A DNA stretch of 64,000 nt from Gemmatimonadaceae bacterium (GCA_036508915.1 DATCGM010000044.1:1096-65095); one strand, 5' to 3'. Numbered from the stretch's first letter, positions 31,440-58,974 are shown. A program made the numbers and translations. Notes: generated by a model from the sequence alone, not told the origin.

Positions 31440-32597
31440 TCAGACGGATGCGCGCACGGTCGCGAGGCGATCCGCGGCGCGCTTCAGCGTCTCGTACTTC
31501 TTGCAGAAGGCGAAGCGCACGAGCGAACGGCCGAGCGCCTTGTCGGAGTAGAAGCTCGAGCCGGGCACGGTCGCCACGCCAATCTCCTCGATCATCCACT
31601 TCGCGAAGGTGACGTCGTCCATGTCGCTCAGCCCCGAGAAGTCCGCCAACACGTAGTACGCCCCTTCCGGCTGCGTGAAGGTGAAGCCCGCTTCGATCAG
31701 CGAATCGCAGAGCAGACTCCGGCGCGACCGATAGTCCAGCGCCATGTGGTTGTAGTAGTCCGCGTCGAAGTGCATGCCGACGGCGCCCGCCGCCTGCAGT
31801 GGCGCCGGCGCGCCCACGGTGAGGAAGTCGTGCACCTTTCGGATCGCCGCCGTCTGCGCCTCGGGCGCGACGGTGTATCCGAGCCGCCATCCGGTGCAGC
31901 TGAATGTCTTGGAAAGTCCAGAGATGGTGATCGTGCGCTCGCGCATCCCGGGCCAGGTGGCCATCACGTGATGCTCGCCGGCGTAGCGGATGTGCTCGTA
32001 GATCTCGTCAGTGATCACCCAGACGTCGTGCTTGATGCACAGCTCGGAGATCATCGTCATTTCGGCGCGGGTGAACACGCGGCCGGTGGGATTATGCGGC
32101 GTGTTGAGGATGATCGCCTTCGTCCGCTTGGTGAACGCCTTCGCGAGGCGGTCGGGGTCGAGGGTCCAGTGCGGCCGCTCGAGAGGGACGAAGGTCGGAA
32201 TCGCGCCGGCGAGCATCGCGTCGGGGCCGTAGTTCTCGTAGAAGGGCTCCAGCACGATCACCTCGTCCCCAGGATCGATCAGCGCGAGAAACACCGCGGC
32301 CATCGCCTCCGTCGCCCCGCAGGTGACCGTGACTTCACGGTCGTGGTCGACATCCATGCCGTACCATCGCCTGTACTTCTCGGCGATCGCGATGCGCAGC
32401 GCGGAGCTGCCCCACGTCACGGCGTACTGGTTGATGTTGCCGTGAATTGCCGCGCACGCCGCGTCCTTCATCGGCTCGGGCATCGGAAAATCGGGAAACC
32501 CCTGTGCGAGGTTGACGGCCTCGTGCTGGTTCGCGATGCGGGTCATCTCGCGGATGACCGATTCCGTGAATGTGCTGGTGCGGCGGGCAGCGAGCAT
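31440..32597 (-). CDS. Class I/II PLP-dependent aminotransferase (YbdL/KAT-like)
   Basis: NLAQGFPDF...NPHNPTGRVFT...ISGLSKTFSCTGWRLGY (PLP lysine context), 385 aa. Confidence 0.85.
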   Translation of the reverse strand: MLAARRTSTFTESVIREMTRIANQHEAVNLAQGFPDFPMPEPMKDAACAAIHGNINQYAVTWGSSALRIAIAEKYRRWYGMDVDHDREVTVTCGATEAMAAVFLALIDPGDEVIVLEPFYENYGPDAMLAGAIPTFVPLERPHWTLDPDRLAKAFTKRTKAIILNTPHNPTGRVFTRAEMTMISELCIKHDVWVITDEIYEHIRYAGEHHVMATWPGMRERTITISGLSKTFSCTGWRLGYTVAPEAQTAAIRKVHDFLTVGAPAPLQAAGAVGMHFDADYYNHMALDYRSRRSLLCDSLIEAGFTFTQPEGAYYVLADFSGLSDMDDVTFAKWMIEEIGVATVPGSSFYSDKALGRSLVRFAFCKKYETLKRAADRLATVRASV

Positions 32598-32855: not shown

Positions 32856-33461
32856 CTATCGTCCGCCAATTTTTGCAAGCGCCACCCGAATCAACTCCGG
32901 CGCCGTCACTCCCTTCGCACAACTCTCGATTGCGGCCCGCACCGCCTTCCCCGCGTCCGCGGCGGAATATCCCAACGACACCAGCGCCCGAATCGCGTCA
33001 TCCGTGCTCGGCCCGCCACCTCTCCCGACTCCCGATTCCACGCCGGATGCCTGCAACTGATCCAGCTTGTCGGCGAGATCGAGAATCATCTGCTCGGCCT
33101 TCTTGCGACCGACGCGCGGCACCGATTGCAGCACGGCGATGTCCTTCTCGCGTATGGCGCGCACGAGCCGGTCCGCCGTAAGCGACGAAAGCAGTCCGAG
33201 CGCGAGCGCAGGCCCAACGCCCTTGGCGCCGAGCACCTTCTGGAAGACCCGGCGCTCGTATGACGATGTGAAGCCGAAGAGCTGCCACCCGTCTTCCTTC
33301 ACCACGAGATACGTGTGCAGCATGCATCGCTCGCCGATCTTCGGCAGCGTCTCGTACGCGTTCAGCGGAACGGCGAGCTCGTACGCCACGCCGCCTTCGG
33401 TCATGATCTCGACGTGGTCGAGATCCTTCGTGATGAGCGTCCCAGCGACTTGAACAATCAT
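32856..33461 (-). CDS. ruvA: Holliday junction DNA helicase subunit RuvA
   Basis: MIVQVAGTLITKDLDHVEI...LFGF...GVGPALALGLLS...LQSVPRVGRKKAEQMILDL. ATGA overlap with the ruvC stop. Confidence 0.9.
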   Translation of the reverse strand: MIVQVAGTLITKDLDHVEIMTEGGVAYELAVPLNAYETLPKIGERCMLHTYLVVKEDGWQLFGFTSSYERRVFQKVLGAKGVGPALALGLLSSLTADRLVRAIREKDIAVLQSVPRVGRKKAEQMILDLADKLDQLQASGVESGVGRGGGPSTDDAIRALVSLGYSAADAGKAVRAAIESCAKGVTAPELIRVALAKIGGR

Positions 33462-34027
33462 GGACGGCGGGTGGTCGGCGACGGGGAGAGCAGGGATGCG
33501 GCAGCGGTCGCGCGTGAGGGTTCTCGCACGTTCCCGCTTCCGTCCATGCGCGGAATGCCTGCGCTCATGATGCAGGCGAGTGCCGCGGCAACGCCATCGG
33601 CCGCGTCGGCCGGCTGCGGTGCACTCTTCAGTCGCAGCAGGCGCGTGAGCATGAACTGCACCTGCTCCTTCGTCGCCCCACCGGTACCGACGACGCACTT
33701 CTTGATCTCCGCCGGGGCGAGCTCGTTCACGACCACACCGCGCTGTTCGGCAGCGAGCAGTATCACACCGCGCGCATGGCCCAGCACCACGGTCGTACGC
33801 ACGTTCCGCGAATAGAAGACGCCCTCGACGGAGAGCGCGTCGGGCGCATGACGCTCGATCAACTCGATGACGCCCTCGTAAATCTCGCGGAGCCGCGCCG
33901 GAAGCGGATCTCGCGCGCGAGTGCGGATGACGCCGCACTCGACCAGCGTTGGCGTCGTACCGCCGCCGCCACGAACGACGCCGTAACCCGTGTTGGCCGT
34001 GCCGGGGTCGATGCCCAGAACGAGCAC
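33458..34027 (-). CDS. ruvC: Crossover junction endodeoxyribonuclease RuvC
   Basis: (V)LVLGIDPGTANTGYGVV...EIKKCVVGTGGATKEQVQ...ADAADGVAAALC. Likely GTG start at 34027, 16 nt after the yebC stop. Confidence 0.9.
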   Translation of the reverse strand: MLVLGIDPGTANTGYGVVRGGGGTTPTLVECGVIRTRARDPLPARLREIYEGVIELIERHAPDALSVEGVFYSRNVRTTVVLGHARGVILLAAEQRGVVVNELAPAEIKKCVVGTGGATKEQVQFMLTRLLRLKSAPQPADAADGVAAALACIMSAGIPRMDGSGNVREPSRATAAASLLSPSPTTRRP

Positions 34028-34043
34028 GCTTGGTCGCCGTCGC

Positions 34044-34793
34044 CTAGAGGTCTTCCAGGTCGGCGTCGTCGACGTCGAAGTTACCCCACACCTTCTGCAC
34101 ATCGTCCAGATCCTCGAGTGCCTCGATGAGCTTGAACAGCGCGGCGACGTCGTCCTTGTTGGTCACCGGCACTGTATTCTTCGGCACCATCGCGATCTCT
34201 GCTTCGCTGGCGACGATCCCCGTCGCCTCGAGCGCGGCTTTCACCGCATACAGCGACATGGGATCGGTGGTCACGATGTAGACGTCGTCTTCGCGGCGGA
34301 AATCTTCGGCGCCCGCCTCGAGTGCCGCTTCGAGCGTGGCGTCTTCGTCGGCATGCTGCGTCGCGTCGATCTCGATCTGGCCCTTCTTGTCGAACATGAA
34401 CGCGACTGAGCCAGGCGTGCCGAGGTTACCACCGGCGCGCGAGAACTTGTGCCGCACGTCGGCGACGGTGCGCGTCGGGTTGTCCGTCATCGCGTCGATG
34501 ATCAGCGCGACGCCACCGGGGCCGTAGCCCTCGTACGACGCCTCCTGGATGTCATTCCCCTTCAGTTCACCGGTGCCGTTCTTGATGGCGCGCTCGATGT
34601 TGTCCTTCGGCAGCGACTTGGCTCGGCCCGCGTCGATTGCCAGCCGCAGACGCGCGTTCGCTGCTGGATCTCCGCCGCCGAGCTTGGCGGCCATGGTGAT
34701 CTCGCGAATGAGCTTCGTGAACAAGACACCACGCTTGGCGTCGGTTGCCGCCTTGTAGTGCTTGATGTTTTTCCATTTACTGTGGCCAGCCAT
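34044..34793 (-). CDS. yebC: YebC/PmpR-family DNA-binding regulator
   Basis: MAGHSKWKNIKHYKAATDAKRG...AKLGGGDPAANARLRLAIDAGRAKSLPKDNIERAI, canonical YebC. Confidence 0.9.
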   Translation of the reverse strand: MAGHSKWKNIKHYKAATDAKRGVLFTKLIREITMAAKLGGGDPAANARLRLAIDAGRAKSLPKDNIERAIKNGTGELKGNDIQEASYEGYGPGGVALIIDAMTDNPTRTVADVRHKFSRAGGNLGTPGSVAFMFDKKGQIEIDATQHADEDATLEAALEAGAEDFRREDDVYIVTTDPMSLYAVKAALEATGIVASEAEIAMVPKNTVPVTNKDDVAALFKLIEALEDLDDVQKVWGNFDVDDADLEDL

Positions 34794-34877: not shown

Positions 34878-35121
34878 TCGCGCCGGGGCTCGAACAGCGG
34901 GAACACGGATCTTACGGATCTGAACGGATACCGCCGGATCTCTCCTCTCTCGATCAGTGGGATACGCGCACATTCCGACTCGTGAATCATTGCAATGGAG
35001 GCAAGCCTTTCGTGCTGACGGGCCGACCTCGCAAATGGAGGCCGGCCCGTCTGTGTAGTATCTGGCAATTTCCGTCGAGATCCGTTGAATCCGTGATCCC
35101 GCTGTTCGAGTCGCGGCGCGA
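34878..35121. repeat. Pair of ~45-bp inverted repeats separated by ~156 bp, just 3' of the outer-membrane protein gene and 5' of yebC
   Basis: Left core CTCGAACAGCGGGAACACGGATCTTACGGATCT (34889-34921). The reverse complement of the right core (35078-35110) is CTCGAACAGCGGGATCACGGATTCAACGGATCT, 29/33 identical. The flanks TCGCGCCG also match. The arms contain ACGGAT(C) units at 9-10 bp spacing. Confidence 0.65.
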
Positions 35122-35128
35122 CAACCGC

Positions 35129-36274
35129 TTACGGCGCAACCCTGATCGCCAACTGCGCCCGGAATCCGGTAAAATCTGCATGCACCGGAGTGCTCTGCGC
35201 GTCCAGGGTGGCGAGCTGCCCGATCGTGTACCCGACACTGGGGAACGCGGCGAGACCACCCACCCCGATTCGCGTACGAAGCCCGAAGGTGCCGAGATAG
35301 CTCGACTGCGAGCGGTCGGCCGTCGTCGTGCTTCCGCTCGTGACGCCCGGAATGTTCTGCAGCCAGTGCCGCCCTTCGATGCTTGGCTCGACGAGCGTGC
35401 CGAGCATGTGCAGCCCGATCCCGAGATAGCCGTTTGCGATGTTCTCGCGTCCTGCCGGATCGAGGGAAGCGTACTGGCCCGGCGCACGGAAGACGTTGTA
35501 TCCCGCGAGCGTAACGTCCGCGCCGGAGATTGAGTTCGTGACCACGGCCTGCGCGATGAGACGGTTGCCCGTGTTGTAGACCGAGCCGCCCGCATCGTCC
35601 TTGCCGAACGCGGAGTACGTGAGGCCGAGCGACAGGCGCCCGTTGTTCAGACCCCGATCCACGCCGACGCGCGCGCGATATTCATCGCCCGGCGTGAAAC
35701 GCAGCGTTGGTCCGGGCACGTTGTAAGGATCGTACGTCGACGAACGCCGTACCGCGCCGCCGAAACCGAAGTTCCAATCACCGAACGGACGAGCGATCGC
35801 GATGCCGCCCGTCGTCGCCAGGCCGGTGCCCATGTTCGAGATCGGGAACGCGAGAAAGTCGCTGCCGATCCGTCCCGCCGCAGTGAGCTGGTCGAGCGTG
35901 ACCGACGACTGGCCGGTGGGCAGGTTCACGCCGCCCGTGATGACCACGAAATCCGTGCCCAGCGTGAGATTGCCGCGAAGCTGCGTGTCGGTGAGACCGT
36001 TGATCTCACTCAGCGTGCTGCCCGTCGTCACCTTCGCACGTGCGTACGAGGTGCCGACGTCGAAGGTGAAGCGCGACCCGAAGGGAATGCTCACGAACAC
36101 CGGCACCGCGAGCTCGGAGATCGTCTCGTTGCTCGGCGACTTGATCTGATACTGCATGAACTGTGGTGCGAGGCGGAGCTCGCTGTCGAACACCGACTGC
36201 GCGCTCAGCGCCGGCGCGACGACGGTCGCGAGCGCGAGCGCGAGAGGGAGCAGTGTACGCATGTGCATGCTCAT
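35129..36274 (-). CDS. Outer-membrane beta-barrel protein (family unassigned)
   Basis: Signal peptide MSMHMRTLLPLALALATVVAPALSAQ. Alternating beta-strand pattern rich in G/T/Y/F/R. ATGA overlap with the upstream lipoprotein gene. Confidence 0.7.
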   Translation of the reverse strand: MSMHMRTLLPLALALATVVAPALSAQSVFDSELRLAPQFMQYQIKSPSNETISELAVPVFVSIPFGSRFTFDVGTSYARAKVTTGSTLSEINGLTDTQLRGNLTLGTDFVVITGGVNLPTGQSSVTLDQLTAAGRIGSDFLAFPISNMGTGLATTGGIAIARPFGDWNFGFGGAVRRSSTYDPYNVPGPTLRFTPGDEYRARVGVDRGLNNGRLSLGLTYSAFGKDDAGGSVYNTGNRLIAQAVVTNSISGADVTLAGYNVFRAPGQYASLDPAGRENIANGYLGIGLHMLGTLVEPSIEGRHWLQNIPGVTSGSTTTADRSQSSYLGTFGLRTRIGVGGLAAFPSVGYTIGQLATLDAQSTPVHADFTGFRAQLAIRVAP

Positions 36275-37641
36275 GGCGTCTTGGGGCGAGTAAGGAGGAT
36301 CGTGACCTTGGCCGTTCCGGTCGGGTTGTCGCTTCCCGTTCCCGCGGAAACCGGATCCTTCGAGCCAGGCTGCGACGACCCGCCGCCGCCCGTTGCACCA
36401 CCAGTCGCCACTCCGCTCGTCGACGGATTGATGTCTCCCGCCGTGTTCTGCGCCGTGTTGCCAAGCCCGCTCGGTGACGTTCCCGTCGGCGCGGTCGAGC
36501 CCTGCTGCGCCGCCGTGACGACCGCGCCCTCGCTCGTGCCCTTGAGGCCAGCTTCAACCGTCGCGGCGCTCACGTCCGTTCCGGCGGACACCGCGCGCAT
36601 CTCCTGGCTCTTCGATTGCGCAGCGCCGAAGCCCGGATCGATGCGCACGGCCTCGTTGAAGAATCGGCCCGCGTCGTCGTAGCGTCCTTCGTCTTCAGCC
36701 GTGAGTCCGCGGCTGTACGCGAGGAATGCCTGCATCGAACGCGTCGGCCGCTGCTCGATCTGCGTGCGCTCGGCCACCGTCAGCGTCACACCGAGCTGCG
36801 TGAAGAGGTCGAGCGCGAGCTTCCTCTCGAGGTTGAACAGCTGCTCGAGCTGGTCCGCCGCCTGCGCCGAGCCCTGGATCTGGCTCGTGGGGACATCGAC
36901 CACCGCCGCATCGACGCGGAGGTTCGAGCCATCGACCTGTAGAATGGCGCCCTGCACCACGCGTCCCGCGCGCACGAGCTTCCCGGCGCGCACATTGGTC
37001 GCCGCGTCGGTCGCGCCCGTCTGCTGGAGCTTGATCTCATCGAGCAGCGCCTGCATCCGCGAGCGCTCGACCAGTGTGAGCTGCGAAGAGCGCGCGAGAT
37101 CGGTTGTGAGTAGATCGGCGAAGCCGCGCTCGAGCACCCTGAGCGTGGTGTCCGCGCCGCTGAATCGAAGCGGCAGCACAGCGACCGTGCGCGGATTGCC
37201 CGGCTGCCCGGAAAGCGACGCTTCCTGCTTCACCGCGGTCTTCGCGTCGGCCGTCAGTTCCTTGCGCGTCAGCGCCGCGAGGCGCGACTGGAGCTGGCTG
37301 CGCACGCGGCTCGTCCGTCCGAACTGGATGTAAGACGAATACGCGGCCTTCGCAGCGGAAAGATCGCCGAGTGCCTCGTCGGCAAGGCCGAGATAGAGCG
37401 ACGTCGTCCCATCCCTGGGATCGATCTTCGCCGCGGTCTCGAGCGCGGCGCGCGCCTCGGAGTAGCGATTTGCCTTGTAGTAGGCGATGCCGAGTGAACG
37501 GTTCACCGCCGCCGACGTGGGGCTCGTACGCTGCTGCTGCTCCAGTCGCGTGACGGAATCGCCCGCGCTCATGCCACCAGTGGCACAGGCTGCGAGGCCA
37601 ACGACGAGCAGGGTCGAAAGAACAGGATTCAGAATACGCAT
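36271..37641 (-). CDS. Lipoprotein with TPR repeats, a central CsgG/LpoB-like domain and a G/T/S-rich disordered tail
   Basis: Lipobox LVVGLAAC. TPR-like GIAYYKANRYSEARAALETAAKIDP. CsgG-like block TVAVLPLRFSG...LLTTDLARSSQLTLVERSRMQALLDEIKLQQTG...GKLVRAGRVVQGAI. GGAGG Shine-Dalgarno sequence 7 nt before the ATG. Confidence 0.7.
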   Translation of the reverse strand: MRILNPVLSTLLVVGLAACATGGMSAGDSVTRLEQQQRTSPTSAAVNRSLGIAYYKANRYSEARAALETAAKIDPRDGTTSLYLGLADEALGDLSAAKAAYSSYIQFGRTSRVRSQLQSRLAALTRKELTADAKTAVKQEASLSGQPGNPRTVAVLPLRFSGADTTLRVLERGFADLLTTDLARSSQLTLVERSRMQALLDEIKLQQTGATDAATNVRAGKLVRAGRVVQGAILQVDGSNLRVDAAVVDVPTSQIQGSAQAADQLEQLFNLERKLALDLFTQLGVTLTVAERTQIEQRPTRSMQAFLAYSRGLTAEDEGRYDDAGRFFNEAVRIDPGFGAAQSKSQEMRAVSAGTDVSAATVEAGLKGTSEGAVVTAAQQGSTAPTGTSPSGLGNTAQNTAGDINPSTSGVATGGATGGGGSSQPGSKDPVSAGTGSDNPTGTAKVTILLTRPKTP

Positions 37642-37652
37642 GCAACCGCCTC

Positions 37653-38504
37653 CTAGCGGTCCGGGTCCAGCATGTCTTCGAATCGCATCCACTGCGCGTA
37701 GAAGTACAGATCCACGTAGCCCGTGCCGCCATTGCGATTCTTTCGCACGAGCAGCTCGGTTGCGCCCTCGATTCCCCGAGCGCTATCGTACATCCCTTCA
37801 CGGAACAGTGCGAGTACCACGTCAGCGCGTTCCTTCACCGCGCCCTGCGCACCAAAGTCGTCAAGCACGGGCCGCCGGTCATCACGCGCCGAGAGTTCGG
37901 GCAGCGGCGCGGTGACGAGGACGGCGACCCGTGCATCGAGCGCGAGCTGCTTGAGGGCGCGGATCGCGGTCGCGGCTTCCTCCTCCGACTCGCGCACCCC
38001 GGGCAGCATCGCGTGTAGTCCATCCACGACCACGAGCTTCATTCCACGCAACGCCGAGATCTCCTCGGCGATTGCGCCAACGCCACCAGAGGGCGCGCGC
38101 TCGATGATCGGCAGATCGTCTCGCAGGCGCACCGCTGCCGCGCCCACACCGGCGCGCGTTACATCGTCGAGCGTTCCGCGACGCAGGTCATCCACGCGCG
38201 TGCGTCCTTCGATCGCGAGCGCACGCTCGAGCACGCGATCGGGCAGCATCTCACCTGAATAGAAGAGCGTGTCGTGCCGCTCCTGCGAGACGCGAAGCGC
38301 CACCGCGAGAGCGAATGCGCTCTTCCCGCTGCCGACGTCTCCACCGAGCACGATGAGATCGCCACGCCGCAGTCCGCCGCCGAGCAGTTTGTCGAGACTC
38401 CGGAACCCGGAGGGTACGGTGTCGGCAGGAGAGGCCCCGTCGGCAACAGCGTCGACGCGGCCTAGCAGAAGAGACAAGGGGGAAATGTCAGCGCCGCGCG
38501 GCAT
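37653..38504 (-). CDS. DnaB C-terminal-domain-only RecA-fold ATPase (no DnaB N-terminal domain)
   Basis: Walker A GGDVGSGKSAFAL, YSGEM (DnaB H1a-like), Walker B LVVVDGLHAM, RKNRNGGTGYVDLYF and a terminal MRFEDM as in DnaB. The SQLNR motif is replaced by APLPE. 283 aa if the start is MPRGADIS. Confidence 0.75.
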   Translation of the reverse strand: MPRGADISPLSLLLGRVDAVADGASPADTVPSGFRSLDKLLGGGLRRGDLIVLGGDVGSGKSAFALAVALRVSQERHDTLFYSGEMLPDRVLERALAIEGRTRVDDLRRGTLDDVTRAGVGAAAVRLRDDLPIIERAPSGGVGAIAEEISALRGMKLVVVDGLHAMLPGVRESEEEAATAIRALKQLALDARVAVLVTAPLPELSARDDRRPVLDDFGAQGAVKERADVVLALFREGMYDSARGIEGATELLVRKNRNGGTGYVDLYFYAQWMRFEDMLDPDR

Positions 38505-38577
38505 GGCCCAAGATACGGTCCATTCCTCCGGGGTAGCAAGGAAAAAACGCGCGCCTGTTCGGAATGTTTCTGCGCGC

Positions 38578-38973
38578 TTATTCGCGGAGCGCCGCCGACA
38601 GAGTATCCAGCTCGGCCCGGGATTGTGCATCGAGATAGGATGTAGCGGCCAGCAAGAGCCCCGCGACCTCCTTTCCCACATCGGCTGGACTCCCCTCAAC
38701 ACTCAGCTCGGCACACCTCGCTACCGACCCGCGAACGGTGGCGGGGACGACGAGCGTGCCGAGCCAGGCCTTCGCGCCGGCGCATCGTCCAGCTCGGCCA
38801 GCCGGGTCGTCGTCCATCGCGGCGGTGCATTCCGCTGCCAGGCGCGCGGCGACGAAGCAAGCGAGTGCCACCTCGCGCGCTCCCCCGATGGGCGCTCGCC
38901 CGGCGAGGCTGGCCAGATGGCGAAACCGGAAGCTGGGCGCGGACAGGGCGTAGGGCGGGAGCGAAATGGGCAC
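38578..38973 (-). CDS. Hypothetical protein (131 aa from GTG, or 79 aa from the internal ATG)
   Basis: High third-position GC consistent with coding, TAA stop, first gene of the minus-strand cluster. No motif recognised. Confidence 0.35.
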   Translation of the reverse strand: MPISLPPYALSAPSFRFRHLASLAGRAPIGGAREVALACFVAARLAAECTAAMDDDPAGRAGRCAGAKAWLGTLVVPATVRGSVARCAELSVEGSPADVGKEVAGLLLAATSYLDAQSRAELDTLSAALRE

Positions 38974-39062: not shown

Positions 39063-40625
39063 ATGCCGCACCAGGTGAAGGCCGTCCTCTGGGTAGACGA
39101 CGAGGCGGAACTGCTCGAGCCACATCGCATCTTCTTGCGTGACAAGGGGTTCGAAGTCGAAACCGCTACGAACGCCGACGATGCCCTGGAGCTCGTTCGG
39201 CGCCGTCCGTTCGACCTCGTGCTGCTCGACGAGCAGATACCCGGAACTCGCGGGCTCGAGGCGCTGAAGGAGTTGCGCGAGATCGAGCCCAACCTTCAGG
39301 TCGTCATGGTGACGAAGAGCGAGGAGGACGGGACGCTCACTGAGGCGCTAGGGAAGAACATCGGCGGCTATCTCGTGAAGCCGGTCACGCCGCGCCAGGT
39401 CTACGCGATGGTCGCGGGGCTCCTCGAGGGTCCACGGATCCGGCAGCAGGTCGTCGCTCGCGCGTTTGTCGACCGGTTTCGCGCCATGCAGGGCGAATCG
39501 CCGCGGGAGCTCGACTGGCGCGGCTGGATCGACCGCTATCTCGAGATGGTCCAGTGGGACCTCGACCTCACGGCGGCCAACGAGATGGGGCTGCACGAGT
39601 CGCTGCGCGGGCTCTTTCCCGAGATGCGCCGAGACTTTGCGTCCTTCATGTCACGTGCGTATCCGGACTGGCTTGCGAATCTGGAGGGCGACCGGCCGCC
39701 GCTCTCGATCGACATCGTGAGCGAGTTCCTGATGCCCGTCGTCGCGCAGGACAAGGCGGCGGCGTTCATCGTCATCGACTGCCTGCGCCTCGATCAGTGG
39801 AAGTTTCTCGAGCCCGTGCTCGCGCCGCTGTTCGACATCGAGACGACGCACTACTTCGGCGTGCTGCCGACGGCGACGCCGTATGCTCGCAATGCGCTGT
39901 TCAGCGGTCTCTTTCCCAACGAGATCGCGGCACGCTTTCCGGATTGGTGGGGCGAGCGGGAGGACGAGACGCTCAACGCGCACGAGAAGGATCTGCTCGA
40001 GGCGCATCTCGTCGAGATGGGACGCAAGGTGCCAGTGAAGTACGACAAGATCTCGTCGTCGCACGAGGCGGACGAGCTCGAGCGTCGCCTCGCGAACGCG
40101 ATCGCGCCGGAAGGGATCAGCGCGTTCGTCTTCAACTTCGTGGACCTGCTCACGCACGGCCGCTCCGAGTCGGCGATTCTCTACGAGGTGGCGCGCGACG
40201 AGATCGCGCTGCGCCAGCTCACGCTGCAATGGTTCAAGCGGTCGGCGTTGTTCAGCGTGCTGCAGGAAGCAGCGCGCCGCAAGGTCAAGGTGCTCGTGAC
40301 GAGCGATCACGGCTCGATCCACTGCCACACCCCGGCGACCGTGTTCGCGAAGCGCGACGCGACGCAGAATCTTCGCTACAAGTTCGGCGAGGATCTGCGC
40401 GCGGAGAATCCCGATCTCGCGCTGTTGTTCAAGAATGAAGACGCGCTCAAGCTGCCGCGCCGGGGCCTCGGCGCGAACACGCTGCTTGCCGCCGGCGACA
40501 GCTTCTTCGTCTACCCAACGAAGCTGCGCGAGTATCAGAGCAGGTATCGCGGCTCGTTTCTGCATGGCGGCGTCACGCCCGAGGAGTGCATCCTCCCCGT
40601 GTCGCTTCTGACTCCGAAGCGCTAG
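39063..40625 (+). CDS. PorX-like response regulator: REC domain fused to a PglZ/alkaline-phosphatase-like domain
   Basis: REC with VLWVDDE...DLVLLDEQIPG...LVKPV. PglZ-type motifs follow: IVIDCLRLDQW, GVLPTATPYARNALFSG, VTSDHGSIHC and FLHGGVTPEE. 520 aa, similar in size to PorX. Confidence 0.85.
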   Translation: MPHQVKAVLWVDDEAELLEPHRIFLRDKGFEVETATNADDALELVRRRPFDLVLLDEQIPGTRGLEALKELREIEPNLQVVMVTKSEEDGTLTEALGKNIGGYLVKPVTPRQVYAMVAGLLEGPRIRQQVVARAFVDRFRAMQGESPRELDWRGWIDRYLEMVQWDLDLTAANEMGLHESLRGLFPEMRRDFASFMSRAYPDWLANLEGDRPPLSIDIVSEFLMPVVAQDKAAAFIVIDCLRLDQWKFLEPVLAPLFDIETTHYFGVLPTATPYARNALFSGLFPNEIAARFPDWWGEREDETLNAHEKDLLEAHLVEMGRKVPVKYDKISSSHEADELERRLANAIAPEGISAFVFNFVDLLTHGRSESAILYEVARDEIALRQLTLQWFKRSALFSVLQEAARRKVKVLVTSDHGSIHCHTPATVFAKRDATQNLRYKFGEDLRAENPDLALLFKNEDALKLPRRGLGANTLLAAGDSFFVYPTKLREYQSRYRGSFLHGGVTPEECILPVSLLTPKR

Positions 40626-40628
40626 CCC

Positions 40629-42470
40629 ATGTATCGCCGCCTGCTGCGGTATCTACGGCCGCACTCCTGGCGGATGGTCGGCACCATCGCGTGCAACATC
40701 GTCGCCGCGGCGCTCGACGTGTTCTCGTTCACGCTGCTCGTTCCATTCCTGAACGCGCTGTTCGGTGCGCAGCAGCTCATCCCGCGCGCGTCGGCGAGCT
40801 GGGTGACGGGTCTGCAGGACCAGCTCGTCGGCAGATTCCTGAATCCGGCGGACCGGCTTGGCTCTGTGGCGACGATGATGATCGCCATCATGGCCATCGT
40901 TGCGCTGAAGAATGTGTTCGTCTGGCTCGCGGGGCAGCTCGGTGCGTCGCTCCAGGAGAATGTCACGCGCGATCTGCGCGACGACGTCTTCCGTCATCTG
41001 CAGCGCCTGCCGCTCGGCTACTTCCAGCACACCAAGACGGGTCAGATCATCTCGCGCGTGCTCTCGGACACGGAGCAGACGAAGGCGCTCATCACCGAGC
41101 TGGTCACGCGCACGTTGCAGAACCTCGCGCAGATCATCGGGACGATCATCATCCTGCTGAACTACTCGGTGCGACTCACCTTCATCGCGCTCGTCATCGC
41201 GCCGCTGCTCACGCTCTTGCTCCAGCCCGTGCTGCGCAAGCTGCGGAAGGGGCATCGCCGGCTTCGCGGCGACTACGGTGAGATCGCGAGTGTGCTGCAG
41301 GAGGTGGTGAGCGGAATTCGCCTCGTGAAATCGTTTCGCGGTGAGCCGTACGAGGACGCGCGCTTCTCCGCGGCGAGCGGACGCTACTCCACGGGGATGG
41401 TGCGCATCACTCGCGTCGCCGCGCTGTCACAGCCGATGACGGAGCTGATTGGAACCTCCGTCGCCATGCTCATTCTCTGGGTCGGTGCGCGTGAGGTGCT
41501 CCTCGGCGCCGGGACCATGGACAGCGCCACACTCATCACCTTCATGATCATGGTGATGCGGCTCCTGCCGCCGCTCAAGCAGCTGTCGCAGGCACCGACG
41601 ACCGCACAGCAGTCGTTCGCATCCGCCGAGCGACTGTTCGAGGTGCTGGATCTCCCGACCGAGGAGCAGACCGATCACGGCACCCGCAAGGTGTCGGCAC
41701 TTCGCGAATCACTGGCCTTCGAGAGGGTCTCCTTCTCGTATGGAGAGGATCTCGTGCTGCGGGACGTGAGTTTCGTCGCACGGCGGGGCCAGGTCGTGGC
41801 GCTCGTCGGTGCGAGCGGCGCGGGGAAGAGCACGCTGGTGGATCTCATTCCACGTTTTTACGAGCCGACGGCTGGCGCCATCTACCTCGATGGCGTGGAC
41901 ACGCGCGAGATCTCGCTCGCATCGCTCCGTGGCTTGACGGGGATCGTCAGCCAGGACACCGTGCTCTTCAACGACACGGTGCGCAACAACATCGCCTACG
42001 GGGCTTCGGAGCGGTTCACCGATGCGCAGGTCGAGGCAGCGGCGCGCGCGGCCAATGCGCATACTTTCATCATGGAGCTTCCCGAAGGATATGGAACCGT
42101 CCTCGGGGAGCGCGGCACACGGCTCTCGGGTGGACAGCGGCAGCGGCTGGCCATCGCGCGGGCGCTGCTCACCGATCCGCCGATTCTGATTCTCGACGAA
42201 GCCACATCGGCGCTGGATACCGAGTCGGAACGACTCGTGCAAGAAGCGATCGACCGCCTCCTCGCCGGCCGAACTGTCTTCGTCATCGCTCACCGCATCT
42301 CAACCGTCGTGAACGCAGACCAGATTCTCGTCCTCGACCGCGGCGAGATCATCGAGCGCGGCGCGCACGCCGAACTGCTCGCGCGGCGCGGTACCTACCA
42401 TCGCCTGCACGCCGCGCAGATGCGGCGCAGCGAAGGTGACGCCGCATCCGTTCTTTCCGGTGCGTCCTAA
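40629..42470 (+). CDS. ABC exporter, fused permease/ATPase (MsbA-like)
   Basis: Six-TM N-terminal half. Walker A GASGAGKST, signature LSGGQRQRLAIARAL, Walker B ILILDEATSALD. Confidence 0.85.
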   Translation: MYRRLLRYLRPHSWRMVGTIACNIVAAALDVFSFTLLVPFLNALFGAQQLIPRASASWVTGLQDQLVGRFLNPADRLGSVATMMIAIMAIVALKNVFVWLAGQLGASLQENVTRDLRDDVFRHLQRLPLGYFQHTKTGQIISRVLSDTEQTKALITELVTRTLQNLAQIIGTIIILLNYSVRLTFIALVIAPLLTLLLQPVLRKLRKGHRRLRGDYGEIASVLQEVVSGIRLVKSFRGEPYEDARFSAASGRYSTGMVRITRVAALSQPMTELIGTSVAMLILWVGAREVLLGAGTMDSATLITFMIMVMRLLPPLKQLSQAPTTAQQSFASAERLFEVLDLPTEEQTDHGTRKVSALRESLAFERVSFSYGEDLVLRDVSFVARRGQVVALVGASGAGKSTLVDLIPRFYEPTAGAIYLDGVDTREISLASLRGLTGIVSQDTVLFNDTVRNNIAYGASERFTDAQVEAAARAANAHTFIMELPEGYGTVLGERGTRLSGGQRQRLAIARALLTDPPILILDEATSALDTESERLVQEAIDRLLAGRTVFVIAHRISTVVNADQILVLDRGEIIERGAHAELLARRGTYHRLHAAQMRRSEGDAASVLSGAS

Positions 42471-42473
42471 CCG

Positions 42474-43562
42474 ATGCGCACCCTGTTCTATCACACCTCG
42501 GCGCACTGGTCCGGATCCTCGCGCGCCTTCGCCGTCGCGGCGCGCGGCCTCGCGGCGCGCGGAGAGCCGGTGACCGTTGTGTGCCGGCAGGGATCGTCGG
42601 CCGAGCTCGGATTCGTCCAGGAAGGGCTTGACGTCGTTCCGGTGCCACCAGCGGCGACGGTCACTCGCGATGCCTGGCGGCTGCGCGCCGTCCTGAAGGA
42701 AAAGTTCATCGAAGTGGTCTTTCTTCACACGGAGCGCGAGCATCTCGTCGCAAGCTCGGCGATGCGGCTGGCCGAGCGTGGAGCGGTGATTCGGCGCATA
42801 CCGGCCGGCGGCAACGCGACGAGCGGACGATCGGGCAAGCTCGCGGATCGCATGGCGACATCGCGGATTCTCTTTACGACCGCGTCCGACCGCGACCGCT
42901 CGGGACTTGGCGATCGCGCCATGATCGCGCCACTCGGCGTGGATGTCGCGAAGGTTCAGGACGCTCGCGCTGAGGCGCGCAGCACGCTCGGCATGACCGA
43001 CGCGACGCAGCTCATCGTCTGCGTCATCGACAGCCGCGCGGGAAGCCGCGTGACGACCGCGATGCGTACGCTCGCCCTTCTCGCGGAGCGTCACCCGGAG
43101 TTGCGACTGGCGCTCGTCGGGCGCTCCACTGACGCGGACGACATGCGCATGCACGCTGCGGCACTCGGCGTCACGTCGCTCGTGCGCTTTCTCGGCGAGC
43201 GCACCGACATGCCGAAGGTGCTCGCCGCGGCGGATGTCGGGTGGGTTGCCGCTGAGGGCGATGATGGCGGCTTTGCGTGCCTCGACTTCATGGCGGCGCG
43301 AGTGCCCGTCATTGCCGAGCGGTCATCGCTCGTCTCGCACTTCGTGCCGGACGGCATCGCGGGAGTGCTTCTTCCTCCTGCCGATCCGAGCGACACGGCG
43401 TCGGCGGTCGCGCGCTTTCTCGCGGATGACGACACGCGCATCGCGATGGGCAAGGCCGGCTACACGCGCGCGCAGCGCGATTTTCGCGAGGAGACCATGA
43501 TCGACGGGTTCGCTGCCGCCGCGAATGCCGGTGGCGACAGGTCGCTCTGGGCGGCGCGGTGA
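42474..43562 (+). CDS. GT-B glycosyltransferase (family 4-like)
   Basis: C-terminal half has the GT4 pattern (FLGERTDMPKVLAAADV...EGDDGGFACLDFMAARVPVIA). Only 3 nt after the ABC gene stop. Confidence 0.75.
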   Translation: MRTLFYHTSAHWSGSSRAFAVAARGLAARGEPVTVVCRQGSSAELGFVQEGLDVVPVPPAATVTRDAWRLRAVLKEKFIEVVFLHTEREHLVASSAMRLAERGAVIRRIPAGGNATSGRSGKLADRMATSRILFTTASDRDRSGLGDRAMIAPLGVDVAKVQDARAEARSTLGMTDATQLIVCVIDSRAGSRVTTAMRTLALLAERHPELRLALVGRSTDADDMRMHAAALGVTSLVRFLGERTDMPKVLAAADVGWVAAEGDDGGFACLDFMAARVPVIAERSSLVSHFVPDGIAGVLLPPADPSDTASAVARFLADDDTRIAMGKAGYTRAQRDFREETMIDGFAAAANAGGDRSLWAAR

Positions 43563-53738: not shown

Positions 53739-55076
53739 TCAGACCTTCAAGCGATCGATCTTTGCGAGCGCATAAGCCCAGTCGGCGGCGAGGCCCGCGT
53801 CCGAAATCCACAGGTGTGGATGCCGACCACTTCGGGTCAGGTACGCTGGCATGTTGAGCACATCCTCACGTAGTCGCTGCAACCGAGTCGTCGCGAACCG
53901 CTCCGGAAGGCAGATGAGCTGAAACCATCGGACGCAGTTGTACGCTAAGAACAGGAGATGCAGGTGGGCTTCGTTCGCGGCATACTGCCCGGTGGGGATA
54001 CTGCCCAGCGCATACTCGCCTTTGAGTTCCCGAATCAGTTGCTCGATGCGTGCGCGTTGGTTGTAAAACCGCCACACGCGGAGCGGGCGCCACGGCAGAT
54101 TCGTCACCAGGACCTGGTAGTAGTAGCGCTGGAAGTGCCACATCGTCAGTTGCTCGTCCTCGTCCTCGGGTTGCTCCCGCCGGATGACCACGAAGCGACG
54201 CGGTGCCGCCCACCCGTGCGGTTGATAGCGAAACTCGGCCGTGCTGACGCCGGCCCGGTGCTCGGCATAGCGCAACGGGCCGGCCAGGGTGCGTTTGATC
54301 GGCGCGGTCAGCTTGGCCACCACGACAAACTCCACGCGCTGATCGGCGAGCCACTCGATGATGGCATGGTCATAGAAGCCTTTGTCGGCGCGGGCAAAGA
54401 TCGGTTTCCCGTGGTCGGCGGCCGGGATCTTCGCCAGACACGCCGTCAGCAGATCGAGCGTGCCGCTGGCCGTGTGGGCGCGGCCGGGGCGGAATTCGCC
54501 CTCCCAGTATTCTTGCCACGTGCCCTCGAAACAGAGGAGCGGGTGATACGAGCGGCGCCCGCGTTTCGCCGGGTTGTACCCCACTTCCGCCCCTTCTTGC
54601 TGGCCGTAGACCACCAGCACTGTCGAGTCGAGATCGAACACGAAGCGCCGGCGTTCGAGCTGCGCCGAGAGGCGCGCGCGCATCGCATCGTGCATGGCGC
54701 GTAATTGCGGCACCAGCTGCGGCGCCGTGCGGACCAAGAAGCGGCGCATCGTCGTCGCATCGGGGTAGTGCGACAACCCGGTGAGATACTGGAACACGCC
54801 GTTGGTCCGCAGCAGGCGAGTCATCTCCAACCGTTTGAGGCCTAAGATGATCGGATACAGCAGCGCGAGCACCAGCTCGCCGATCGAATAGCGGGTTGCG
54901 CGGTGGCCCAGATGCAGGTCGTGCGCGAACGCTCGCTTCAAGCCAATGACGCTGAAGAAGCGATGCAGCAGATAGACGCCCCCATAGCGCGTAAGGGCGT
55001 CGGGCCGAGCAGCAAACGTCAACGTACGTGGGCCTTTTGGCATCAGAATGAACTTCACCTCTGGGGTGAAGTTCAT
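53739..55076 (-). CDS. IS1380-family DDE transposase
   Basis: 445 aa. Carries LTRYGGVYLLHRFF and GYNPAKRGRRSYHPLLCF, blocks I associate with IS1380-type transposases. Confidence 0.85.
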   Translation of the reverse strand: MNFTPEVKFILMPKGPRTLTFAARPDALTRYGGVYLLHRFFSVIGLKRAFAHDLHLGHRATRYSIGELVLALLYPIILGLKRLEMTRLLRTNGVFQYLTGLSHYPDATTMRRFLVRTAPQLVPQLRAMHDAMRARLSAQLERRRFVFDLDSTVLVVYGQQEGAEVGYNPAKRGRRSYHPLLCFEGTWQEYWEGEFRPGRAHTASGTLDLLTACLAKIPAADHGKPIFARADKGFYDHAIIEWLADQRVEFVVVAKLTAPIKRTLAGPLRYAEHRAGVSTAEFRYQPHGWAAPRRFVVIRREQPEDEDEQLTMWHFQRYYYQVLVTNLPWRPLRVWRFYNQRARIEQLIRELKGEYALGSIPTGQYAANEAHLHLLFLAYNCVRWFQLICLPERFATTRLQRLREDVLNMPAYLTRSGRHPHLWISDAGLAADWAYALAKIDRLKV

Positions 55077-57598: not shown

Positions 57599-58974
57599 TC
57601 ATCACCTACCGGGATGCCCAGTCGCCGCATTCGCCTGTACAGGTTCGCTCGATCCGTCTTCAATCGCCGCGACGCCTCGGCCACGTTTCCCGCGGCAGCC
57701 GACAAGGCGCGCACGATCAGAATCCGCTCGTGTGCGTCGAGCGTGTCGCTCAGCGATTGGTCGAGTGCCGTCGGGTCGGGCAGCGGCTCCTCCACGCGGC
57801 GCGCGCTGCCGGCGACCGGCAGCACCGCGAGCACGTGGCGCTCGTCCACGTCGCCGCCAGCATGCAGAATCGCCAGCCGCTCCACGATGTTCGCGAGCTC
57901 GCGAATGTTTCCAGGCCAGCGATGGCCAGCGAGAATCGCGAGCGCGGCGGCGGTCCAGTTCGGTGCGCGCCGGCCCGTGCGCGCATGATGCATCGCCGAG
58001 AAGTGTGCGACGAGCGCGGGAATGTCGTCCGGCCGCTCGTGCAGCGGCGGCACGTCAATCGGGATGACATTCAGACGGAAAAATAGATCCTCGCGAAATG
58101 TGCCATCGGCCACGGCGCGCGCGAGATCGCGGTTCGTCGCGCTCACGATGCGCACGTCGACGCGTATCGCCTTGCCTCCGCCCACCCGCTCGATCTCGCG
58201 CGCCTCGATCGCGCGCAGCAGCTTGGACTGCGCCTCGAGCCCGAGGTCGCCAACCTCATCGAGAAAGAGCGTCCCCGTGTGTGCGAGCTCGAAGCGGCCG
58301 ATGCGGCGATCTGTCGCGCCGGTGAACGCGCCCTTCTCGTGCCCGAACATCTCGCTCTCCACGAGATCGCGCGGAATCGCCGCGCAATTCACGCGCACGA
58401 AGGGCCGCTCGCGCCGGGCACTGCCGAAGTGAATCGCCGCGGCGACGAGCTCCTTGCCCGTGCCCGATTCGCCGGTGACGAGCACACGCGCATCGGTCGG
58501 TGCGATCCGCGCGATCATCTCCCGCACGCGCGCCATCGCCGGGCTGCCGCCGATCATCTCTCCGGCTAGCCCGAGATCCTCGCGTAGCGCGCGTGCCTCG
58601 CGGCGCACGCGCCGCAGCTCGAGCGCGGACGCGAGCGCGAGCAGCACGCCTTCGGGAGAGAGTGGCTTCTCGAGGAAGTTGAAGGCGCCGAGCTTCGTCG
58701 CCTTGACCGCGTCGCTCAACCCCGCCTTTCCGCTCATCATGATCACCGGCACATCGGGTGCCGACTCGCGCAGCCGCGCGAGCGTCGCCAGTCCATCGAG
58801 CTCGCCGGGAATCATCAGATCGAGTAGCACGACGTCGGGCGCGCTTTCCGCCGCGCGCGCAAGCCCGGCCGCGCCCTCGGCGGCGTCGCGCACTTCGTAG
58901 CCTTCGCTGGCGAGCAGCGCGCCCACCATGCGACGGATATTGGGCTCGTCGTCGACGATCAGAACGCTCGACAT
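57595..58974 (-). CDS. Sigma-54-dependent response regulator (NtrC/NtrX-like) with an intact GAFTGA motif
   Basis: REC (VLIVDDEP...VVLLDLMIPG), Walker A GESGTGKE, EMFGHEKGAFTGA, WPGNIRELAN and a C-terminal HTH. Confidence 0.9.
   Translation of the reverse strand: MSSVLIVDDEPNIRRMVGALLASEGYEVRDAAEGAAGLARAAESAPDVVLLDLMIPGELDGLATLARLRESAPDVPVIMMSGKAGLSDAVKATKLGAFNFLEKPLSPEGVLLALASALELRRVRREARALREDLGLAGEMIGGSPAMARVREMIARIAPTDARVLVTGESGTGKELVAAAIHFGSARRERPFVRVNCAAIPRDLVESEMFGHEKGAFTGATDRRIGRFELAHTGTLFLDEVGDLGLEAQSKLLRAIEAREIERVGGGKAIRVDVRIVSATNRDLARAVADGTFREDLFFRLNVIPIDVPPLHERPDDIPALVAHFSAMHHARTGRRAPNWTAAALAILAGHRWPGNIRELANIVERLAILHAGGDVDERHVLAVLPVAGSARRVEEPLPDPTALDQSLSDTLDAHERILIVRALSAAAGNVAEASRRLKTDRANLYRRMRRLGIPVGDE

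What the first reader, a model, noticed from the sequence alone, without database searches (positions are those of the whole stretch)
35129..38973. DnaB C-terminal-only ATPase co-operonic with a TPR/CsgG-like lipoprotein and an outer-membrane barrel
There are four co-directional minus-strand genes:
- A hypothetical 131-aa protein.
- A 283-aa protein consisting only of a DnaB-type RecA-fold domain.
- A lipoprotein with TPR repeats, a CsgG/LpoB-like domain, a further TPR region and a disordered tail.
- A 381-aa beta-barrel protein.

The ATPase keeps Walker A/B, the YSGEM block and the RNG motif. It lacks the helicase N-terminal domain, and its SQLNR motif is replaced by APLPE.

The ATPase stop and the lipoprotein ATG are 11 nt apart, and the lipoprotein's GGAGG Shine-Dalgarno sequence lies within the ATPase 3' end. 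The lipoprotein and barrel genes overlap by ATGA.

A cytoplasmic DnaB-like ATPase tightly coupled to two envelope proteins is not a combination I can assign to any known system. It could be a secretion, assembly or surface-structure module, or a signalling ATPase. The locus is divergently transcribed from the PorX-like operon.
Basis: partly seen in the sequence, partly recalled or inferred. Interest (0 to 1): 0.65.

Follow-up and report, generated by a model that had tools for sequence, protein, structure and literature searches.

The report
DnaB-like ATPase beside separable envelope genes
The four genes are real and tightly packed, but comparison with about 270 related genomes shows that the truncated DnaB-like ATPase and the outer-membrane gene pair come and go independently, so they are neighbours, not one machine.

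Summary
There is a 131-aa orphan gene, a 283-aa DnaB C-terminal-domain-only protein, a TPR/CsgG-like lipoprotein 11 nt downstream, and an overlapping beta-barrel gene.

The inferred four-gene envelope system does not hold. The locus is a syntenic block found only in Gemmatimonadales MAGs: ABC<-(PorX)<-|->small->ATPase->[lipoprotein->barrel]->yebC->ruvC->ruvA.
- Of 194 resolved ATPase-seeded loci, 95 lack the lipoprotein/barrel pair. In these the ATPase runs straight into yebC, in some only 9-19 nt away.
- Six loci keep the pair but have lost the ATPase.
- Parsimony needs at least 9 gain/loss events.

The ATPase is an order-specific DnaB paralogue.
- It keeps the catalytic Glu, Walker B Asp and the trans Lys/Arg finger in essentially all (244-245 of 245) family members.
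- It lacks the N-terminal domain.
- It never has DnaB's ssDNA-contacting Arg.
- It has lost the Walker A Lys in 41 of 245 members.

Most likely it is a ring-forming, non-translocating accessory of DNA replication or recombination, but this is inferred. The lipoprotein/barrel pair is an independent, translationally coupled outer-membrane cassette of unknown cargo. Interest is modest.

The parts
38578..38973 (-). 131-aa orphan gene ('small131'), first gene of the unit; predicted cytoplasmic six-helix bundle
   Evidence: 482 homologues, all hypothetical, with 35 invariant columns in a 22-sequence alignment. AlphaFold pLDDT 81.5, six helices. No Pfam, NCBIfam, PADLOC or PHROG hit. No Foldseek hit in PDB or BFVD (best E about 1). 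An iterative HMM finds a homologue upstream of the ATPase in 226 of 241 loci, and also in loci that lack the ATPase.
37653..38504 (-). 283-aa DnaB C-terminal-domain-only RecA-fold protein, starting at the DnaB linker region; Gemmatimonadales-specific DnaB paralogue
   Evidence: Pfam DnaB_C 5e-40. TIGR00665 DnaB scores 134.5 bits against a 385 cut-off and covers only profile positions 174-433. Best PDB matches are DnaB residues 185-440 at 1.6e-26. Orthologues are 283 aa. Across 245 family members E85 is conserved in 244 and D161, K255 and R257 in all 245; K61 is present in 204 (the window has K); position 218 (Bst R381) is never Arg; position 200 (Bst Q362) is P, H or Q.
36271..37641 (-). 456-aa lipoprotein: signal peptide with LAAC lipobox, N-terminal TPRs, CsgG/TolB_N/LpoB-like domain, second TPR region, low-complexity tail ending in a conserved C-terminal strand (..TAKVTILLTRPKTP)
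   Evidence: Pfam TPR families; CsgG 2.2e-10 (residues 146-237, profile 5-102 of 210); TolB_N 4e-3; LpoB 1e-2. The ATG lies 11 nt after the ATPase stop. The C-terminal motif T-x-V-T-I-[IV]-I-[RK]-[RK]-P is conserved across homologues of 40-60% identity, while the tail before it varies. It always occurs immediately upstream of the barrel gene.
35129..36274 (-). Outer-membrane beta-barrel protein, 381 aa from the ATGA-overlapping ATG or 377 aa from ATG at 36262; signal peptide ..ALSA|QS
   Evidence: No Pfam or NCBIfam hit. 848 homologues, all hypothetical and Gemmatimonadota. AlphaFold pLDDT 75.3, about 16 strands. Foldseek top hits are BcsC, FapF, CymA, PgaA and porins at E 6e-8 to 4e-6, TM about 0.5. 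The median lipoprotein->barrel spacing across 146 loci is -4 nt.
35017..35051 (-). GC-rich 14-15 bp hairpin about 80 nt after the barrel stop, without a U-tract; possible end of the transcription unit in this lineage
   Evidence: The RNA fold of 35010-35128 gives -51.7 kcal/mol, z = -3.9 against shuffles. The consensus terminator scan did not call it. A 335-nt gap follows before yebC.
32856..34793 (-). yebC (34044-34793), ruvC (about 33458-34000) and ruvA (32856-about 33450). These housekeeping genes directly follow the ATPase in lineages without the envelope cassette.
   Evidence: ORFs. Orthologues follow the ATPase or barrel in nearly every locus. ruvB, queA, tgt, def and fmt lie further downstream.
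39063..40625 (+). Divergently transcribed PorX-type response regulator (receiver + PglZ), followed by an ABC exporter at 40629-42470
   Evidence: NCBIfam T9SS_RR_PorX 1.5e-157, 525 bits against a 300 cut-off. PorX is present between ABC and the ATPase in only 118 of 188 loci, so it is also an optional neighbour.

Best explanation
The region holds independent units that are collinear by descent, not one system.

Unit 1: the small orphan gene plus a DnaB-CTD paralogue.
- Both are confined to Gemmatimonadales.
- Ancestrally they sit at the head of the yebC-ruvC-ruvA(-ruvB-queA-tgt) housekeeping cluster.
- The paralogue begins at the DnaB linker helix.
- It keeps the catalytic Glu, Walker B Asp and the trans-acting Lys/Arg finger. 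It therefore probably forms DnaB-CTD-like rings and, in the window's lineage (Walker A Lys intact), binds and hydrolyses ATP.
- It lacks the N-terminal collar and primase-binding domain, DnaB's ssDNA-contacting Arg and, in the window's lineage, the H3 Gln. It is therefore unlikely to be a translocating helicase.
- Its most likely role is a nucleotide-dependent accessory or regulatory ring acting on the DNA replication/recombination machinery. This role is inferred from homology and ruv linkage, not shown.

Unit 2: the lipoprotein and barrel genes.
- They form a translationally coupled two-gene cassette, inserted between the ATPase and yebC in one sub-lineage and later lost many times.
- They most likely form an outer-membrane complex: a barrel of about 16 strands, with a periplasmic TPR/CsgG-like partner docked through its conserved C-terminal strand.
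- The complex probably serves export, uptake or envelope organisation without the ATPase.

In this genome all four genes are probably still co-transcribed.
For: Shown:
- Every relative found lies in the same syntenic block in Gemmatimonadales MAGs.
- 95 of 194 resolved ATPase-seeded loci lack the cassette.
- The ATPase stop lies 9-19 nt from the yebC start in L184, L188, L198 and L204.
- Six loci have small gene->lipoprotein->barrel->yebC with no ATPase; L272 was read directly and has a 70-nt gap.
- At least 9 state changes are needed on the ATPase tree, a count that does not depend on rooting.
- Every barrel found in the barrel-seeded scan sits in this same slot, and the lipoprotein directly precedes it wherever the upstream DNA is on the contig.
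- Motif states in 245 family members: E85 in 244; D161, K255 and R257 in all 245; K61 in 204; position 218 never Arg.
- The roles of R381/E382/G384 come from PMC6391071 and PMC8421360.
- The N-terminus aligns to the DnaB profile from about residue 160-175.
- The barrel fold is supported.
- There are no PADLOC hits beyond P-loop noise.
- The window context is housekeeping genes, with no secretion-system or polysaccharide synthase genes in the ORFs scanned between about 21.8 and 62.7 kb.
Against: - The 11-nt ATPase-lipoprotein spacing, with the Shine-Dalgarno sequence over the stop codon, is conserved in many loci. The median call corresponds to the same junction. A GC-rich hairpin follows the barrel. 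Where the cassette exists, the four genes therefore look like one operon, and co-transcription often reflects shared function.
- Linkage to yebC-ruvCAB is also only synteny within one order, so the DNA-related role rests mainly on homology.
- No biochemical data exist.
- The loss of the DNA-contacting Arg, and of the Walker A Lys in one clade, argues against any classical DNA-motor role.
- The NJ tree and MAG contigs may inflate the number of gain/loss events.
Confidence: 0.62

Rival explanations
1. One reading: the four genes form one trans-envelope module, in which the cytoplasmic DnaB-like ATPase powers or regulates assembly, secretion or a surface structure made by the lipoprotein and barrel.
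For: The spacing is tight (11 nt, then an ATGA overlap) and there is a hairpin after the barrel. The same order occurs in 135 non-redundant loci.
Against: Half of the ATPase-bearing loci lack the envelope pair, and six loci with the envelope pair lack the ATPase. No inner-membrane component is encoded that could link a cytoplasmic ATPase to outer-membrane proteins. The ATPase is equally tightly joined to yebC where the cassette is absent.
Confidence: 0.08
2. The ATPase is a KaiC/ArlH-like signalling ATPase that works with the divergently transcribed PorX response regulator.
For: There is a weak KaiC Pfam hit (26.8 bits against a 26.6 cut-off) and weak ArlH/FlaH hits over the P-loop. The PorX gene is divergent, 89 nt away.
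Against: PorX is absent between ABC and the ATPase in 70 of 188 loci. The DnaB matches are 30 orders of magnitude better than the KaiC match and cover the whole protein. No sensor kinase is adjacent.
Confidence: 0.07
3. The small gene and the ATPase are a domesticated replication module of an ancient phage or plasmid: a loader-like small protein plus a short DnaB/RepA-like helicase.
For: Short DnaB-like helicases exist in phages. PHROG_243, a 273-position profile, matches end to end at 2.8e-26, and TIGR03600 phage_DnaB scores 1.9e-37. Pfam AAA_25, which from my own knowledge is the RepA-like plasmid helicase family, scores 3.8e-15.
Against: The pair is strictly vertical and sits at a single locus in one order, flanked by housekeeping genes. 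No integrase, repeats or phage genes are adjacent. The small protein has no fold match to viral or PDB proteins, which include helicase loaders. GC content is unremarkable.
Confidence: 0.1
4. The ATPase is the genome's replicative DnaB, with its N-terminal domain mis-called or encoded by the upstream gene.
For: None beyond the adjacency of an upstream helical 131-aa protein.
Against: Full-length DnaB queries align only from residue about 159-186 onward, and nothing upstream matches residues 1-158. The small protein has no PF00772 hit and no fold similarity to anything in the PDB. The 73-nt gap, different frame and separate stop are conserved. The NCBIfam DnaB equivalog score is 134 against a 385 cut-off. 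The Walker A Lys is lost in 41 of 245 orthologues, which is incompatible with an essential helicase.
Confidence: 0.01

Closest known systems
Replicative helicase DnaB (SF4, RecA fold), C-terminal domain
   Same: There is full-length alignment to DnaB residues about 160/185-440 at 32-40% identity. The Walker A GK[ST], catalytic Glu (SxEM), Walker B Asp, the K-x-R-N-G Lys/Arg finger and the linker region are all kept.
   Different: There is no N-terminal domain. The Walker A context is GGDVGSGKS instead of ARP[GS]xGK[ST]. H3 SQLxR is replaced by APLPE in the window's lineage. The DNA-loop R381 is Gly and E382 is Ala. The Walker A Lys is lost in 41 of 245 members. The score is far below the equivalog cut-off.
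RadA/Sms, a DnaB-type recombination helicase (PMC5512693)
   Same: It is a RecA-fold, DnaB-like ring ATPase without the DnaB N-domain that acts in recombination. Here the gene sits next to ruvCAB. The K-N-R-x-G motif resembles RadA's KNRFG.
   Different: There is no zinc finger and no Lon-like domain. TIGR00416 matches only residues 30-96 (38.8 bits against a 403 cut-off). The DNA-contact Arg is absent. It is not a RadA orthologue.
Short phage/plasmid DnaB- or RepA-like helicases (PHROG_243, Pfam AAA_25)
   Same: They have a similar length (about 270-280 aa) and consist of the RecA domain only.
   Different: This gene is chromosomal, vertically inherited and has no mobile-element context. Its catalytic and DNA motifs are partly degenerate.
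TPR-plus-barrel polysaccharide/amyloid export pairs (BcsC, PgaA, PelB/PelC, AlgK/AlgE, FapF, CsgG)
   Same: A periplasmic TPR protein or lipoprotein with a CsgG/TolB_N-like domain is paired with an outer-membrane barrel of about 16 strands. The best Foldseek barrel hits are BcsC, FapF, CymA and PgaA.
   Different: The barrel hits do not discriminate from ordinary porins (all E 1e-7 to 1e-6, TM about 0.5). The CsgG hit covers only the N-terminal half of the profile. No synthase, amyloid subunit or other pathway gene is nearby. The family is restricted to Gemmatimonadota.

Membership tests
DnaB replicative helicase (TIGR00665 / PF00772 + PF03796) | N-terminal helical domain (PF00772) forming the primase-binding collar | tested here: not met
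   No PF00772 hit at E<=0.1. DnaB queries align only from residue about 159-186. The upstream gene has a different fold.
DnaB replicative helicase (TIGR00665 / PF00772 + PF03796) | C-terminal RecA-fold domain with Walker A GK[ST], catalytic Glu, Walker B Asp and Lys/Arg finger | tested here: met
   PF03796 5e-40 over residues 30-277. K61, E85, D161, K255 and R257 align to Bst K216, E241, D320, K418 and R420.
DnaB replicative helicase (TIGR00665 / PF00772 + PF03796) | H3 motif SQLxR (Gln sensor) and the ssDNA-binding loop Arg (Bst R381) | tested here: not met
   P200 lies opposite Q362 and G218 opposite R381. Position 218 is never Arg in 245 members. Residue roles come from PMC6391071 and PMC8421360.
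DnaB replicative helicase (TIGR00665 / PF00772 + PF03796) | Score above the curated equivalog cut-off | tested here: not met
   134.5 bits against 385.25.
RadA/Sms (TIGR00416) | N-terminal zinc finger, KNRFG RecA-like domain and C-terminal Lon-like domain | tested here: not met
   Only residues 30-96 match, at 38.8 bits against a 403 cut-off. The protein ends at residue 283 with no extra domains.
KaiC / ArlH-type ATPases | KaiC-domain match better than other RecA-fold families | tested here: not met
   PF06745 scores 26.8 bits (cut-off 26.6) against 137.9 bits for DnaB_C. The ArlH and KaiC NCBIfam hits cover only the P-loop region.
CsgG family (PF03783) | Full CsgG domain, including the part that forms the transmembrane channel | tested here: inconclusive
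   The hit exceeds the gathering score (40.6 against 20.8) but covers only profile positions 5-102 of 210. Overlapping TolB_N and LpoB hits suggest the shared superfamily fold. No PDB sequence match was found for this domain.
Outer-membrane beta-barrel proteins | Signal peptide plus a closed antiparallel beta-barrel | tested here: met
   AlphaFold model with about 16 strands, pLDDT 75. 251 Foldseek hits at E<=1e-3, all among the 50 listed being outer-membrane barrels.
Synthase-dependent exopolysaccharide export (BcsC/PgaA/PelBC/AlgKE) | Linkage to a polysaccharide synthase or modification operon | tested here: not met
   The flanking genes are yebC-ruvCAB-queA-tgt-def-fmt on one side and PorX-ABC-glycosyltransferase on the other. 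There is no synthase.
Type IX secretion system | Structural T9SS genes (PorK/L/M/N, SprA, PorV and others) linked to the PorX regulator | tested here: inconclusive
   PorX is an equivalog match. The lipoprotein's PorE hit is noise (E 0.06, 11.6 bits against 600). No T9SS Pfam family was seen in the 20 window ORFs scanned between about 21.8 and 62.7 kb. The rest of the genome could not be searched.

The most novel reading that the evidence does not exclude
In the sub-lineage that acquired the cassette, including this genome, the DnaB-CTD ring has been co-opted to act with the lipoprotein/barrel pair, for example as a cytoplasmic ATPase controlling their expression, targeting or a trans-envelope process. 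This would be the first helicase-derived ATPase coupled to an outer-membrane module. The conserved 11-nt junction and the hairpin-delimited four-gene unit do not exclude it.
Probability: 0.07. Interest if true: 0.75.

Novelty: new variant of a known kind. Interest (0 to 1): 0.3.

Why it matters
- The analysis removes an apparent new secretion or assembly system from the candidate list.
- It shows how tight operon spacing can mislead when all relatives share one syntenic block.
- What remains is an uncharacterised, order-wide DnaB paralogue that keeps its trans-acting catalytic residues while losing its DNA contact and, in one clade, its own P-loop lysine. That pattern is typical of regulatory pseudo-ATPases, and the gene sits at the head of the ruv cluster.
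- If it modulates the replicative helicase or Holliday-junction processing, it would be a new kind of helicase-derived regulator in a poorly studied phylum.
- The lipoprotein/barrel cassette is a phylum-restricted outer-membrane pair worth a structural look.

Tried and rejected
- Fold searches of the small protein against PDB and BFVD gave nothing below E about 1. It is therefore neither a recognisable DnaB N-domain nor a known helicase loader.
- A profile comparison of the 131-aa upstream ORF of a distant lineage (L195) with the small-gene family was not significant on its own (probability 4%). An iterative HMM later recovered most such ORFs.
- Sequence and profile searches of the PDB for the lipoprotein gave only TPR matches.
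- PADLOC gave only P-loop noise.
- A k-mer search for a shared operator, for example an SOS box, in 152 upstream regions gave only GC-rich coding-like words. I dropped this line.
- The consensus promoter/terminator scan found nothing useful in this high-GC DNA.
- An alignment of nine very divergent ATPases was too variable for a locus scan.
- No paralogues of the lipoprotein or barrel were found elsewhere in the window or in 224 loci.
- The literature search found no paper on this protein.

Full report
**Observation.** The window is about 66% GC throughout. Its closest relatives are soil Gemmatimonadaceae MAGs.

- The 283-aa ATPase start is right. The longer 349-aa ORF would overlap the upstream gene, and the orthologues are almost uniformly 283 aa.
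- The ATPase/lipoprotein junction reads TAG-GAGGCGGTTGC-ATG, which is 11 nt, with GGAGG overlapping the stop codon.
- The lipoprotein TGA overlaps a barrel ATG as ATGA. Homologues begin at the third Met, giving 377 aa.
- Pfam and NCBIfam confirm DnaB_C only for the ATPase (5e-40, no N-domain). They confirm TPR plus a CsgG/TolB_N/LpoB-like domain for the lipoprotein. They give nothing for the small gene or the barrel. The divergent neighbour is a PorX equivalog.
- The small gene is real, with 482 homologues and a confident six-helix model.
- The barrel model is a beta-barrel of about 16 strands.

**The ATPase.**
- *Relatives.* An exhaustive HMMER search of 1.8 billion cluster representatives finds a narrow family of 255-310-aa proteins down to about 40% identity. 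Below that it finds ordinary full-length DnaB at 32-40% identity. The few family members that carry a source name are Gemmatimonadales or Gemmatimonadota.
- *Residue mapping.* Alignment to G. stearothermophilus DnaB maps K61, E85, D161, K255 and R257 onto K216, E241, D320, K418 and R420. P200 lies opposite Q362 of SQLSR. G218 and A219 lie opposite R381 and E382 of the ssDNA-binding loop. Those loop residues contact the DNA phosphates (PMC6391071 and PMC8421360).
- *Family-wide motif states.* In 245 non-redundant family members E85 is present in 244 and D161, K255 and R257 in all 245. Position 218 is never Arg. Position 200 is H, Q or P. The Walker A Lys is replaced by T, C, A, S or V in 41 members, essentially the clade of MAGs mostly labelled Gemmatimonas.
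- *N-terminus.* It aligns to DnaB profiles from about position 160-175, which is the linker region.
- *Not a split DnaB.* Nothing in the window matches DnaB residues 1-158. The upstream protein has no fold match in PDB or BFVD.
- *Conclusion.* The protein is a DnaB-CTD paralogue. It probably still forms rings with a trans-acting finger, but it has lost the features needed for DNA translocation, and in one clade it has lost its own P-loop lysine.

**Neighbourhood.** Three ATPase-seeded scans and one barrel-seeded scan of GTDB species representatives gave 303 loci, 274 of them non-redundant. All but one are titled Gemmatimonadota/Gemmatimonadales or unclassified 'bacterium'; one 4.5-kb contig (L231) is labelled Vicinamibacterales. 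tblastn and jackhmmer mapping show one syntenic block:

ABC<-(PorX)<-|->small->ATPase->[lipoprotein->barrel]->yebC->ruvC->ruvA

Content varies as follows.
- 135 loci carry ATPase + lipoprotein + barrel.
- At least 69 loci have the ATPase followed by yebC within 700 nt.
- 8 loci have unrelated insertions between the ATPase and yebC.
- 6 loci (L261, L269, L272, L276, L280, L283) have small gene->lipoprotein->barrel->yebC with neither ATPase nor PorX. In L272 the small gene stops 70 nt before the lipoprotein ATG.
- Among resolved ATPase-seeded loci, 99 of 194 carry the cassette.
- About 40 loci forming the clade of MAGs mostly labelled Gemmatimonas lack it, as do several deep Gemmatimonadales clades. 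This set includes complete chromosomes.
- Fitch parsimony on an NJ tree of the ATPase needs at least 9 changes, with a midpoint-root state of 'absent'.
- In L184, L188, L198 and L204 the ATPase stop is 9-19 nt from the yebC ATG. The ATPase is thus as tightly joined to yebC there as it is to the lipoprotein here.
- PorX is present in only 118 of 188 loci.
- In the L184-type loci, opposite-strand genes separate the small gene from the ATPase.
- Every barrel recovered lies in this same slot, and the lipoprotein directly precedes it wherever the upstream DNA is on the contig. The median lipoprotein->barrel spacing is -4 nt.

**Interpretation.**
- The only obligate pair is lipoprotein + barrel.
- The ATPase and the cassette each occur without the other, so the four-gene envelope system is not supported as a functional unit.
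- In this genome they are probably still co-transcribed. The spacings are 73 nt, 11 nt and an overlap. A -52 kcal/mol GC hairpin (z = -3.9) follows about 80 nt after the barrel stop, within the 335-nt gap before yebC.
- The ancestral arrangement puts the small gene and the ATPase at the head of yebC-ruvC-ruvA. In the window, an aminotransferase, ruvB, queA, tgt, def and fmt follow.
- Together with the DnaB homology, this makes a role in DNA replication or recombination the best guess. RadA/Sms sets a precedent for a DnaB-type ring without the DnaB N-domain acting in recombination (PMC5512693). This protein is not a RadA orthologue. Its degenerate DNA loop suggests a regulatory or scaffolding ring rather than a motor. 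This step is inference.

**The cassette.**
- *Lipoprotein.* It has a lipobox in the window's lineage. In several lineages the ORFs, taken from the first possible start codon, gave no lipobox match, and the one lipoprotein N-terminus I read directly (L272) looks like a plain signal peptide.
- *Lipoprotein tail.* A variable Gly/Ser/Thr/Pro-rich tail ends in a conserved strand, T-x-V-T-I-[IV]-I-[RK]-[RK]-P. This suggests docking to or into the barrel, which is inferred.
- *Barrel.* Its best Foldseek hits are BcsC, FapF, CymA and PgaA, but ordinary porins score almost as well. An export-channel reading is only a resemblance.
- *Context.* No synthase, amyloid or T9SS structural gene was seen in the window ORFs scanned.
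- *Distribution.* Both proteins are restricted to Gemmatimonadota and unannotated.

**Comparison and novelty.**
- Databases already label the ATPase 'DnaB-like helicase C-terminal domain-containing protein' or, wrongly, 'replicative DNA helicase'. No paper discusses it.
- It fails the DnaB membership tests for the N-domain, H3 motif, DNA-loop Arg and equivalog score, and meets the test for the RecA-fold core.
- It is best filed as a new variant of the DnaB/SF4 RecA-fold family.
- The lipoprotein/barrel pair is an uncharacterised outer-membrane pair.
- Interest is modest. The striking combination is an accident of synteny, but the order-wide, partly inactivated DnaB paralogue is a reasonable target for biochemistry.

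Noticed in passing
L081-L116, L155-L164 (loci of MAGs mostly labelled Gemmatimonas), ATPase Walker A: The orthologous ATPase has lost the Walker A lysine (GxGTS, SAGCS and similar) in 41 of 245 family members. It still keeps the catalytic Glu, Walker B Asp and the Lys/Arg finger, which is the pattern of a pseudo-ATPase that may act in trans.
   Followed up: partly
L261, L269, L272, L276, L280, L283: In these loci both PorX and the ATPase are missing. A small131-like gene is followed directly by the lipoprotein and barrel, so the small gene is not strictly the ATPase's partner.
   Followed up: partly
window 36271-36330 (lipoprotein C-terminus): The last 10 or so residues of the lipoprotein (..VTILLTRPKTP; consensus TxVTI[IV]I[RK][RK]P) are conserved across homologues of 40-60% identity, although the 80-aa tail before them is variable and low-complexity. 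This may be a strand that docks to the barrel.
   Followed up: partly
window 35017-35051: A strong GC-rich hairpin without a U-tract lies between the barrel gene and yebC. I did not check whether it is conserved in other loci.
   Followed up: no
window 31440-32597: A class I/II aminotransferase gene sits between ruvA and ruvB, splitting the usual ruvAB pair. In L195 ruvA is followed by ruvB without it.
   Followed up: no
window 39063-43562: A PorX-type response regulator (a strong equivalog match, outside the Bacteroidota where PorX has been studied) is followed by an MsbA-like ABC exporter and a GT1 glycosyltransferase. No T9SS structural genes were seen in the window ORFs scanned. PorX is missing from this slot in about a third of related loci.
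   Followed up: partly
window 53739-55076: A DDE transposase (DDE_Tnp_1_4, 1.6e-57) is the only mobile-element gene noticed in the window.
   Followed up: no
window 55862-62681: This stretch holds a sigma-54 response regulator (57595-58974) with a histidine kinase (58986-60269), a 578-aa ORF with no Pfam hit (55862-57598), and a 735-aa NYN-domain protein (60474-62681).
   Followed up: no
L184 7107-10206 (also L188, L204): In one lineage, two opposite-strand genes (452 and 586 aa; I ran no family search on them) are inserted between the small gene and the ATPase. There the ATPase stop lies 9-19 nt from the yebC start.
   Followed up: partly
alignment: P0308, P0309: Other short DnaB-like proteins outside this family (273-307 aa, about 33% identity) also lack the Walker A lysine but keep the DLRxxG DNA loop. 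This may be an independent family of DnaB-derived pseudo-ATPases of unknown taxonomy.
   Followed up: no
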